Assembly: GCF_964188315.1 (NCBI RefSeq)
Contig: NC_135659.1
Coordinates: forward strand, 65,782,001 to 65,846,000
Source of the DNA: Podarcis muralis
Lineage: Eukaryota
Length of the DNA: 64,000 nt
Direction: 5' to 3'
Part shown: positions 45,230 through 50,198 of the stretch, piece after piece
Numbering within the stretch: position 1 is the stretch's first letter
Layout of the letters: each line of letters begins with the position of its first letter
Position numbers and translations under genes: made by a program
Notes under the pieces: model-generated
Told to the model about the DNA's origin: nothing
Database searches by the model: none
Seen by the model: only the letters and a program-made list of their open reading frames with translations

Positions 45230-45614
45230 TGTTGAATGGTTTCTTTAAATGTAAAGGTTCATCATTGTTCCACTCGATGTGTATATCTTAAAGGGGCCAG
45301 AGCAAGGGCCAGAGCAAGATAATGAGACCCAACTTTAAAGCTGTGAAACATAGCAGGTGCTGCTGAGTTGTATTTGATTAAGGTGTGTCAGCATTTGGGT
45401 TTAGTATATAAGGAGCAGCACCTAGCTCTCCCATTACCCTGGGGTTTGGGTTGGTGGTTGGGTCTGGTTTGGTTGTTAATGTATTTAGTGTAAAAGGAGT
45501 TTTTGTTTTTCTTATTAAAACCTTGTTTAAGTTATTTTTGAGTCCTTTTCATTTTTAATGCATGATCTCCCCAGCAAGCTATCTGCAGCGCTACCATACT
45601 GCAAATAGTCAACA
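45230..45614 (+). repeat. Copia 5' LTR (385 bp)
   Basis: TGTTGA...TCAACA; TATATAA box and ATTAAA; differs from the 3' LTR only at 45323 (T) versus 49907 (C) by my comparison. Confidence 0.98.
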
Positions 45615-45619
45615 TCTTT

Positions 45620-45634
45620 GGTTATGGGCCCAGC
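45620..45634 (+). other. Primer-binding site complementary to the anticodon arm of initiator tRNA-Met
   Basis: GGTTATGGGCCCAGC is the reverse complement of GCTGGGCCCATAACC in tRNA-iMet. Confidence 0.92.
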
Positions 45635-45732
45635 TGCTGAGTGGATGACTGCATATTTTTGGACTCTGAGAAAGGTTTGAAAACTCCTTCTCCTGTTAGT
45701 GTAATTTTTTGTGGGTCTGGAAGAGTTCCAGA

Positions 45733-48700: not shown

Positions 48701-49797
48701 CCCTTTATGGTCTGCACCAAAGTGGAAGGAATTGGCACCAAACTTTAGCAAAAGAATTGCTGGATATTGGTTTTTCACAAGGAAAGGCAGACAATTGTGT
48801 GTTCATAAAGGAAAGGGCAAACTCTGTAACAAAAATATGTGTGTATGTAGATGACGTATTAATTTCTACAAAAACTAAACAGGAATATGAACAGGTGGTA
48901 TCACAGTTACAGAAGAAATTTGATGTAGTGGAATTAGGCATAGCTAAAAATTACTTATCCATGCAAATTGAGAAAGGCAAAAATGGATCTTTTCTGGTTC
49001 ATCAAACTGCAAAAATTGATGATCTTGTTGAAATGCTATGTTTAGAAAATGCAAATGGGAAGGAAACACCTATGGTGTGTGGTTTCACCTTTACAGGTGA
49101 AGACAAGCCATTTCCTAACAAAACTTTGTATCGTTCTGCTATAGGCAAGCTAAATTTCATTCAAAGAATCTCAAGACCAGATATAACTTATGCTTTTCAC
49201 TTTCTGGCAAAATTTGTGGAAAAGCCTACTACACAATGTTTCTCTGCTCTTAAGAGAGTGGTAATGTACCTTAAACATACCAAACATTATAGGTTGCAGT
49301 TTACAACATGTATTGACAAAGGTTTTGAAATTTTCTGCGATGCATCTCATGCAATGGAACAAAATAATTGCAGGGGTGTGTCTGGTATGGTGTTTTGTTA
49401 TAACGGTTGTCCATTTGAATGGAAGTCCCAAACACAAACCATTATTTGTCTCTCCACAACAGAAAGTGAATTATGTGCATGCGTTCAGGCCACTCGTGAT
49501 GTAGAATGGTATCTGCAAGTGTTTGCAGACCTACAGATGCAAGTAACACTACCAGTAAAAGTTTACCTTGATTCCCAGAGTGGACTTGCTATCCTGTGCT
49601 CAGAGACCAATACGCAGCGCACTAGAGTCTTAAGGTTACGTTTAGAATTTGTAAAGCAACTAATTGCTGATGAAATGGTTGTATTTGAATATGTTCCTGG
49701 TGACAGTCAAATTGCGGACATTTTTACAAAAGCACTTCCAAAGGTTACACATGAAAAACATGTACAAAGTATGCTTTATGTTTTTGTTCCACAATGA
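45733..49797 (+). CDS. Copia gag-pol polyprotein, 1354 aa
   Basis: ATG at 45733; CCHC knuckle CWFCNKQGHFAKDC, protease IIDSGAS, IN HHCC and D-D(35)E (HCD, SDRGGEF, NGLVE), RT YKARLVARGF and YVDD, RNase H FCDAS/STTESE/ADIFTK; no stops. Confidence 0.98.
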   Translation: MVDRVPEAEKALVFPQLTDENYSLWSFRVEALLTSREVWTYVTDDPPNPVTNAWSKGDAKARAIINLAVSDQQVVYIRNKKTAKEMWDSLAAVHVRKESASALTFFKQLYQTKLQPGGDLAAHLRRLEAIRGELIRRDMVIPDIQYVFIILCSLNEDFDGIASQISAVPPAQLTVEGVTARLMGELDRREACAISTPISRKNEERHMQTCGDTTAFKAAKRCWFCNKQGHFAKDCRAKRKQSTPKSVSVRQSRLSAQQQTSYSKDRNEPRAFHAWTTNRKRIKDAKWKSFIIDSGASQHICNDRSLFISFEEEIGNVHLANSQVLQSLGRGTVKLDSLNITIANCIYCPSVDNLLSVRCFARQGITVRFLKSMCEFFDGNKRLLYARDSDGLYRLYFRTYSQSPINCRAAQSSQGLRNVRPHSGCVHEAHRILGHLNFADVVKTKNIVNGLNLKPCKFFMQCLSCCKNKIKVARKGRCSDRKVTEPFERVHCDLVGPLPPSLGGSKYWLTLIDQYSRYCWTYAIAEKSQAFEKYKVFCNWVKMHFNKPIKNLFSDRGGEFVSEDFEKFLEAQGTTHELSCPRSPWQNGLVEVVQRDLQAGVKTYLHDANLPKDFWAEALNAFCYVRNRSYHTSLDVTPYEKLFKKRPNLKYLRIWGSDVIMHYPAKQKLGERSVQGKLMGYQQGAYRIYIPATGKFHITRSMIQTVNWNGVAVFQDTDGIDNTEEEEEETAEEAAGNSASELMGKDKKPVESDKLFDDLKSQAPEGRLDSLDFSDRELSLQAPLQSDNDLQPETSGLLSPIKSEKSDSPSGLRRSDRKRQKPQRFADEHFNTVYANKVVFEPKSYSDVQKLPKQQAANWYKAMNSEIASLKEHNTWSLVPQTPDMRLIDSKWVYRVKTNDKNEVVRYKARLVARGFQQIPGEDYDLCYSPSVKYETVKLLLKDASQRGHSVYHLDIKTAYLFADLKEQIFMRVPEGIDAAEGLVCKLNKSLYGLHQSGRNWHQTLAKELLDIGFSQGKADNCVFIKERANSVTKICVYVDDVLISTKTKQEYEQVVSQLQKKFDVVELGIAKNYLSMQIEKGKNGSFLVHQTAKIDDLVEMLCLENANGKETPMVCGFTFTGEDKPFPNKTLYRSAIGKLNFIQRISRPDITYAFHFLAKFVEKPTTQCFSALKRVVMYLKHTKHYRLQFTTCIDKGFEIFCDASHAMEQNNCRGVSGMVFCYNGCPFEWKSQTQTIICLSTTESELCACVQATRDVEWYLQVFADLQMQVTLPVKVYLDSQSGLAILCSETNTQRTRVLRLRLEFVKQLIADEMVVFEYVPGDSQIADIFTKALPKVTHEKHVQSMLYVFVPQ

Positions 49798-49805
49798 TGA
49801 ACCGC

Positions 49806-49813
49806 AGGGGAAA
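49806..49813 (+). other. Polypurine tract
   Basis: AGGGGAAA directly before the 3' LTR. Confidence 0.8.
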
Positions 49814-50198
49814 TGTTGAATGGTTTCTTTAAATGTAAAGGTTCATCATTGTTCCACTCGATGTGTATATCTTAAAGGGGCCAGAGCAAGGGCCAGAGCA
49901 AGATAACGAGACCCAACTTTAAAGCTGTGAAACATAGCAGGTGCTGCTGAGTTGTATTTGATTAAGGTGTGTCAGCATTTGGGTTTAGTATATAAGGAGC
50001 AGCACCTAGCTCTCCCATTACCCTGGGGTTTGGGTTGGTGGTTGGGTCTGGTTTGGTTGTTAATGTATTTAGTGTAAAAGGAGTTTTTGTTTTTCTTATT
50101 AAAACCTTGTTTAAGTTATTTTTGAGTCCTTTTCATTTTTAATGCATGATCTCCCCAGCAAGCTATCTGCAGCGCTACCATACTGCAAATAGTCAACA
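49814..50198 (+). repeat. Copia 3' LTR (385 bp)
   Basis: Direct repeat of 45230-45614. Confidence 0.98.

What the first reader, a model, noticed from the sequence alone, without database searches (positions are those of the whole stretch)
45230..50198. Intact, very young, probably transposition-competent Copia in a reptile
Seen: LTRs 384/385 identical (one C/T at a CpG), perfect TSD, uninterrupted 1354-aa ORF with all catalytic residues, no env, 118-nt leader. Established: LTRs are identical at insertion; Copia elements are absent or only fossil in mammals and birds and sparse in amniotes generally. Inference: a recent and possibly polymorphic insertion from an active family; horizontal acquisition is possible.
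Basis: partly seen in the sequence, partly recalled or inferred. Interest (0 to 1): 0.7.

Follow-up and report, generated by a model that had tools for sequence, protein, structure and literature searches.

The report
Young lizard Copia with five-base overhang
This is an intact, recently inserted jumping gene of a kind that is common in lizards and snakes, not rare; its one oddity is a five-base spacer that turns up in place of the target repeat at nine insertion sites, likely because a five-base DNA overhang is sometimes sealed into the chromosome instead of being trimmed off.

Summary
The anatomy is exactly as described: LTRs 384/385 alike, a CGAAC target duplication, one 1354-aa Copia polyprotein, no env. 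The copy is young, and the empty site exists in two DNA runs. The premise of rarity is wrong. A 2025 survey found Copia in 23 of 24 squamates. This genome holds at least 119 copies of this family and other intact Copia families. The nearest relatives are a sister family in the same genome and Podarcis lilfordi proteins, and no donor for horizontal transfer was found. Nine LTR right ends are followed by exactly TCTTT, and in none does the left flank repeat it (at most about 0.6 expected from base composition). Those targets resemble TCTTT more than normal targets do. Best reading: the cDNA carries a 5-nt U5 extension, longer than the 2-3 nt known for retroviruses, which is occasionally ligated into the 5-nt integration gap. 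An ordinary element with a modest, testable mechanistic twist.

The parts
45225..45229 (+). left target-site duplication CGAAC
   Evidence: empty allele joint 45224>50199
45230..45614 (+). 5' LTR, 385 nt, TG...CA; TATA-like at 45405, ATTAAA at 45514
   Evidence: promoter and polyA roles inferred
45615..45619 (+). 5-nt spacer TCTTT between LTR and primer-binding site; predicted U5 cDNA extension
   Evidence: kept in 79 of 79 parsed copies; found at 9 right junctions
45620..45634 (+). primer-binding site, 15-nt complement of host tRNA-iMet nt 25-39 (anticodon arm)
   Evidence: five more pairs to the D-arm predicted at 45635-45639
45733..49797 (+). single gag-pol ORF, 1354 aa
45820..46302 (+). 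Copia-type gag (PF14223)
46396..46437 (+). CCHC zinc knuckle
46600..46824 (+). protease beta-barrel (PF22936) with DSGA
47182..47838 (+). integrase core (rve, D-D35-E) and SH3-like domain
48352..49077 (+). reverse transcriptase (RVT_2)
49327..49752 (+). RNase H region (approximate bounds, by acidic motifs)
49806..49813 (+). polypurine tract AGGGGAAA abutting the 3' LTR
49814..50198 (+). 3' LTR, 385 nt
50199..50203 (+). right target-site duplication CGAAC
45133..50246 (-). host tRNA-like SINE interrupted by the element (45133-45229 and 50204-50246, approximate)
   Evidence: empty site read; very high repeat depth on both halves; SINE label is inference

Best explanation
This is an intact, recently inserted and still polymorphic copy of a Ty1/Copia family with over a hundred young copies in a lacertid lizard genome, likely inherited vertically within squamates, likely primed by the 5' half of initiator tRNA, and likely making a cDNA whose right end carries a five-base extension that is occasionally ligated into the target gap. 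Steps: (1) LTR-driven RNA gives one Gag-Pol polyprotein (anatomy shown; family RNA weakly shown). (2) Minus-strand synthesis starts from tRNA-iMet cut in the anticodon arm, 3' end at nt 39 (pairing shown; use inferred from copia/Ty5). (3) RT copies the 5-nt spacer, so the U5 end reads CA-TCTTT (inferred; the spacer never converts to tRNA sequence in 79 of 79 copies). (4) Five bases must be removed to expose CA-3'OH, and integrase joins with a 5-bp stagger (TSDs shown; trimming inferred). (5) The leftover 5-nt 5' flap is as long as the gap; at about 3% of right ends it pairs with a T-rich target and is ligated, replacing the right TSD with TCTTT (product shown; route inferred).
For: Anatomy. 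Family size and youth: 119 leader matches, 404 exact LTR right ends, 52 of 79 LTR pairs identical and 56 of 79 full ORFs, pN/pS 0.24 on shared and 0.57 on singleton variants among 24 copies. Empty allele. PBS: 15/15 to tRNA-iMet 25-39, no match to the tRNA 3' end. Vertical context: tree with the sister family 100/100 and a squamate group including Rhineura floridana 93/91; older relatives in the genome at 76-83% LTR identity with the same spacer. Spacer at junctions: 9 cases; P=1.8e-8 at base-composition expectation and 4.9e-5 at a generous rate; 0 of 9 have TCTTT on the left, against 67 of 79 full-length and 16 of 17 solo LTRs with perfect TSD. Left 5-mers match TCTTT at 23 of 45 positions against a mean 1.15 of 5 in 81 normal TSDs (0 of 200,000 resamples); position 4 matches in 8 of 9. 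L144 shows a 5-for-5 replacement against 18 paralogous SINE hits.
Against: cDNA ends were not observed. The empty site could be inferred for only 1 of 9 cases cleanly; L092 may lack one host base against 2 of 3 paralogs, L090 lies in a microsatellite, and 6 had no paralog. The replicate in the 3-nt-spacer sister family is weak: 2 of 285 ends, one fitting (CGAAG left, CGTAG right) and one uninformative. Several other TSD mismatches do not involve the spacer. The squamate group has bootstrap 93, under the tool's 95 mark, and reference clades were lacking. RNA evidence is thin: 150 reads of 11.0 million, both orientations, many from other copies.
Confidence: 0.72

Rival explanations
1. Same element and same 5-nt cDNA extension, but the nine odd junctions come from end joining: integrase joins only the U3 end, or unprocessed cDNA is captured at a break, and host repair joins the blunt CA-TCTTT end.
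For: Gives the same product at L144 (no TSD, no loss). Ty1 cDNA captured at double-strand breaks carries extra cDNA-only nucleotides (PMC11372161, passage). L092 may have lost one base.
Against: Blunt capture does not predict that the left 5-mer resembles TCTTT (23 of 45). No partial TSD remnant is visible after TCTTT in 8 of 9 cases, and the spacer is untrimmed in all nine, although the search asked only for the full 5-mer.
Confidence: 0.2
2. The family arrived in this lizard lineage by recent horizontal transfer.
For: Long terminal branch (0.71) and only 43% identity to its sister family. PMC11889832 leaves an ancient transfer of the Mtanga clade into tetrapods open (section 13 read).
Against: No non-squamate protein above 38% in 1553+838 hits (120 listed each) or the best 150 of the representatives search. 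P. lilfordi holds it at 93-94%. The genome holds a ladder of older copies (93.7-99%; LTR relics 76-83%). The sister family is resident in the same genome.
Confidence: 0.05
3. The TCTTT junctions are chance, target preference, or conversion from the 5' LTR, and the element is a wholly ordinary Copia.
For: Spacers of 0-5 nt are tolerated in plant PBS searches (PMC6317226 passage). Conversion tracts running into the PBS would be hidden among 5' LTRs and were not counted.
Against: Target preference would put TCTTT on both sides (0 of 9). Chance is excluded at P<=5e-5. Conversion would not stop at exactly five bases or prefer T-rich targets.
Confidence: 0.05

Closest known systems
Squamate Copia of the Mtanga clade (PMC11889832; passages, section 13, supplements 3 and 6 read)
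   Same: Copia in a squamate, high copy number, young. The paper places all 750 amniote elements it treed in Mtanga and lists 1004 copies in 44 clusters for P. muralis.
   Different: The paper has no PBS analysis (0 occurrences of the term). Its reference FASTA could not be read, so this family may or may not be one of its clusters.
Corn snake Copia in OCA2 and CLCN2 (PMC4657000, PMC11948899; passages read)
   Same: Very young, polymorphic, about 85 near-identical copies, intronic insertions in a squamate.
   Different: 5832 bp against 4969 bp; snake lineage; known phenotype. No sequence comparison was made.
Drosophila copia / yeast Ty5 (Hemivirus-type half-tRNA priming; PMC1181622, PMC5371799, PMC10886601 passages)
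   Same: Primer site complementary to the anticodon arm of tRNA-iMet, ending at nt 39 (40 in standard numbering); single Copia-order polyprotein; no env.
   Different: Here the PBS is 5 nt from the LTR. That copia and Ty5 have it directly adjacent is recalled, not checked; other families in this genome have 0, 2-3 or 3 nt.
Retroviral integrase 3' processing and gap repair (PMC12789967 passages)
   Same: CA end exposed, staggered joining, flap removal and gap fill.
   Different: Di- or trinucleotides are removed in retroviruses; here five bases are implied, equal to the gap, with a visible by-product.

Membership tests
Ty1/Copia (Pseudoviridae) | integrase before RT-RH in pol | tested here: met
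Ty1/Copia (Pseudoviridae) | RVT_2-type RT and Copia gag | tested here: met
   PF07727 211.6 bits, PF14223 96.9 bits
Ty1/Copia (Pseudoviridae) | TG...CA LTRs, 5-bp TSD, PBS and PPT | tested here: met
Half-tRNA-primed (Hemivirus-type) Copia | PBS complementary to the anticodon arm of tRNA-iMet, not its 3' end | tested here: met
   15/15 to nt 25-39 of a genomic tRNA-Met(CAT); no 8-mer match to the 3' end
Half-tRNA-primed (Hemivirus-type) Copia | priming from a cleaved tRNA in particles | not testable with these tools
   needs primer-cDNA sequencing
Mtanga clade | RT/RH groups with Mtanga references at high bootstrap | not testable with these tools
   reference FASTA (additional file 8 of PMC11889832) is of a kind not readable here
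Mtanga clade | groups with other squamate Copia | tested here: inconclusive
   100/100 with the sister family; 93/91 for the wider squamate group; one lizard family lies outside it
Active autonomous family | many identical-LTR, full-ORF copies and insertion polymorphism | tested here: met
Active autonomous family | de novo insertions or free cDNA | not testable with these tools
   no pedigree or cDNA data
Endogenous retrovirus / env-bearing element | env-like ORF | tested here: not met
   16 nt between stop and 3' LTR; no other ORF over 90 aa from ATG

The most novel reading that the evidence does not exclude
A vertebrate Copia lineage has lengthened its U5 cDNA extension to five bases (three in its sister family, none in most neighbours). 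Its integration therefore needs a five-base trim, and the flap exactly fills the integration gap, so about 3% of germline insertions record direct flap ligation. This is a natural genomic read-out of the repair step of integration.
Probability: 0.55. Interest if true: 0.55.

Novelty: new variant of a known kind. Interest (0 to 1): 0.4.

Why it matters
As a young Copia in a lizard it is ordinary and already anticipated in print. The junction class matters more. It gives in vivo evidence on the structure of a Copia cDNA end and on host gap repair after integration, a step hard to see directly. It implies end trimming longer than that described for retroviruses. It also warns that TSD-based LTR annotation will miss or misjudge a few percent of true insertions. 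The family is also a source of polymorphic insertions in a much-studied lizard group, like the corn snake Copia behind two colour mutants.

Tried and rejected
Targeting to tRNA-like SINEs: the window copy sits in the B-box-like part of one, but flanks of the other parsed copies are diverse by eye; not tested formally, set aside. Priming by a longer tRNA piece pairing across the spacer: folding allows it with one bulge (about -5 kcal/mol), but the spacer would then convert to tRNA sequence, and it stays TCTTT in 79 of 79 copies. Donor search: two homolog searches and one representatives search gave nothing non-squamate above 38%. P0250 (unnamed ENA) is close to another lizard family and was not traced. 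No holder on record as RNA was listed (no evidence either way). Contig depth ratios are not copy numbers and were not used. A 75-row ML tree did not finish; FastTree on 75 rows and IQ-TREE on 26 chosen rows were used. PDB search of the neighbouring exon gave nothing. Paper searches for flap capture or extra nucleotides at TSDs: searches returned 0 papers; two searches returned 4 and 3, of which I read passages of one each and saw the rest as listings. I found no description of this junction class, but the library lacks most subscription journals, where the older retroviral end-mutant work lies (recalled). Podarcis+copia gave 3 papers, none on this family by listing. The Ty5 priming paper was not held. 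Earlier scan notes: none near, none on these words; three unrelated notes in this genome.

Full report
Observation. Every structural claim holds. The LTRs are 45230-45614 and 49814-50198 (385 nt, one C/T difference at a CpG), flanked by CGAAC, with a 118-nt leader. One ORF of 1354 aa carries gag, protease, integrase, SH3 and RT in Copia order, with the expected catalytic motifs. There is no room for env.

Family. A search with the whole element scored 26 of 900 candidates, all full length; 24 of 26 keep the 1354-aa frame, and the 24 equal-length copies differ by 17.4 of 4969 nt on average. Exact patterns give 119 leaders, 314 LTR left ends and 404 LTR right ends. I fetched 60 more loci by position; 53 had two LTRs that could be parsed, 36 of them identical, and 32 had a full ORF. 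Shared variants show pN/pS 0.24 and singletons 0.57, as expected of a replicating family. The window copy has 8 private differences, 4 of them amino-acid changing, so its own competence is unknown. A joint 45224>50199, skipping the element plus one TSD, is in both DNA runs laid (two studies; 92 and 29 letters on the short side), so the site is not fixed in organism A, whose runs hold about 90% of the element's words. In the same call a single-cell RNA run gave 150 reads of 11.0 million, on both strands and often with other copies' variants. Contigs of a run guessed to be RNA covered the element and neither flank. This is weak, family-level evidence of transcription.

Rarity and transfer. The premise fails for squamates. 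PMC11889832 (passages, section 13, supplements 3 and 6; three picture-only supplements and the FASTA were unreadable) reports Copia in 23 of 24 squamates, all treed amniote elements in the Mtanga clade, and 1004 copies in Podarcis muralis. Corn snake has a young mutagenic Copia (passages), and tuatara has abundant Mtanga-like elements (passage). In this genome RVT_2 has 2157 candidates (150 scored); of 14 fetched representatives, 7 have identical LTRs. The closest named proteins are from Podarcis lilfordi at 93-94%, which also suggests a lacertid host. Nothing non-squamate exceeds 38% among listed hits. In an IQ-TREE run on 26 chosen rows the element pairs with a sister family from the same genome (100/100) inside a squamate group with a Rhineura floridana protein (93/91); one lizard family falls outside. 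Older copies at 93.7-97% and LTR relics at 76-83% with the same spacer are present. Long vertical residence fits best; an ancient transfer of the whole clade into tetrapods stays open, as that paper says.

Priming. The PBS (45620-45634) is the exact complement of nt 25-39 of a genomic tRNA-Met(CAT), with no match to the tRNA 3' end. This is the half-tRNA mode of copia and Ty5 (passages). Other families here share it. What differs is the gap between LTR and PBS: 0 nt in most, 2-3 nt in one, CGT in the sister family, and TCTTT here, in 79 of 79 copies.

Junctions. If the primer ends at nt 39, RT copies the spacer and the cDNA's U5 end extends five bases past CA (inference). Genome-wide patterns found 7 + 2 LTR right ends followed by TCTTT but not by the PBS; ends followed by TCTTTGG could not be told from 5' LTRs. 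Four are 3' LTRs of two-LTR elements and five are solo LTRs. Even counting all 404 ends, 0.6 are expected from base composition (P=1.8e-8; 4.9e-5 at a rate of 0.004). In 0 of 9 is the left flank TCTTT. By contrast, 67 of 79 parsed elements (66 plus one resolved) and 16 of 17 solo LTRs have perfect TSDs; the 17 come from 36 fetched loci, of which 16 were unparsed and 3 were 3' LTRs. The nine left 5-mers match TCTTT at 23 of 45 positions against 1.15 of 5 in 81 normal TSDs (0 of 200,000 resamples), most at position 4 (8 of 9), next to where a flap would be ligated. For L144, paralogous SINE copies show that the right target copy was replaced five for five; L092 may lack one base, L090 lies in a microsatellite, and six had no paralog among the loci held. 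In the sister family 2 of 285 ends are followed by CGT and a non-G base: one fits a 3-nt capture, one is uninformative. That replicate is weak.

Mechanism. Shown: the spacer appears at right junctions, replacing the TSD, at T-rich targets. Inferred: a 5-nt extension is trimmed from the 3' strand (retroviral integrases remove 2-3 nt, passage), leaving a 5' flap as long as the gap, which is usually removed but sometimes anneals and is ligated. The rival is end joining of an unprocessed end, for which Ty1 gives a precedent (passage). Both require the 5-nt extension. Four searches found no account of this junction class, in a library lacking most subscription journals.

Context. The element split a tRNA-like SINE. 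It lies 5.8 kb upstream of, and on the same strand as, an exon at about 55974-56081 that opens a CortBP2-domain protein (CTTNBP2NL-like by recall). That exon has a splice acceptor before its ATG, so the element may be in a 5' UTR intron; this is untested.

Verdict. A real, young, polymorphic member of a well-known squamate Copia radiation, not a rarity and not evidently transferred, with one mechanistic feature that I did not find described. Interest 0.4.

Noticed in passing
window 55974-56081 (+): First coding exon of a CortBP2-domain gene (Pfam PF09727, E=1e-10; CTTNBP2NL-like by recall), with an acceptor before the ATG; the Copia lies 5.8 kb upstream in sense orientation.
   Followed up: partly
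G000 contig C20 (30.4 Mb): 45 of the 150 best RVT_2 matches (my count) lie on a contig that is 2% of the genome; possibly a W chromosome.
   Followed up: no
L018 and L115 left junctions: The LTR starts G instead of T and the TSD is lost; looks like slippage on GT/GTT microhomology between target and LTR start.
   Followed up: partly
L101 and L158 right junctions: Right flank begins CTTT or CTT with no TSD; may be partial spacer capture; unexplained.
   Followed up: no
L080-L085 (C1 about 281-302 kb, C3 about 202-223 kb): Older 94% copies near chromosome ends, broken by large nested insertions and apparently duplicated between ends.
   Followed up: partly
P0253: Rhineura floridana protein annotated as ATG10 isoform contains a full Copia RT-RH: probable annotation fusion or exonised Copia.
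   Followed up: no
window 35245-35691 (+): Weak integrase-core match (E=7e-4, below cut-off): remnant of another LTR element.
   Followed up: no
window 28001-28500: CpG-rich island (o/e 1.03), possible promoter.
   Followed up: no
L208: Sister-family copy with a 4-nt spacer (CGAT) instead of CGT.
   Followed up: no
window 24757-24813, 5234-5594, 50417-50777: tRNA-like match (Rfam 35 bits) and several copies of an abundant SINE (Sauria-type by recall).
   Followed up: no
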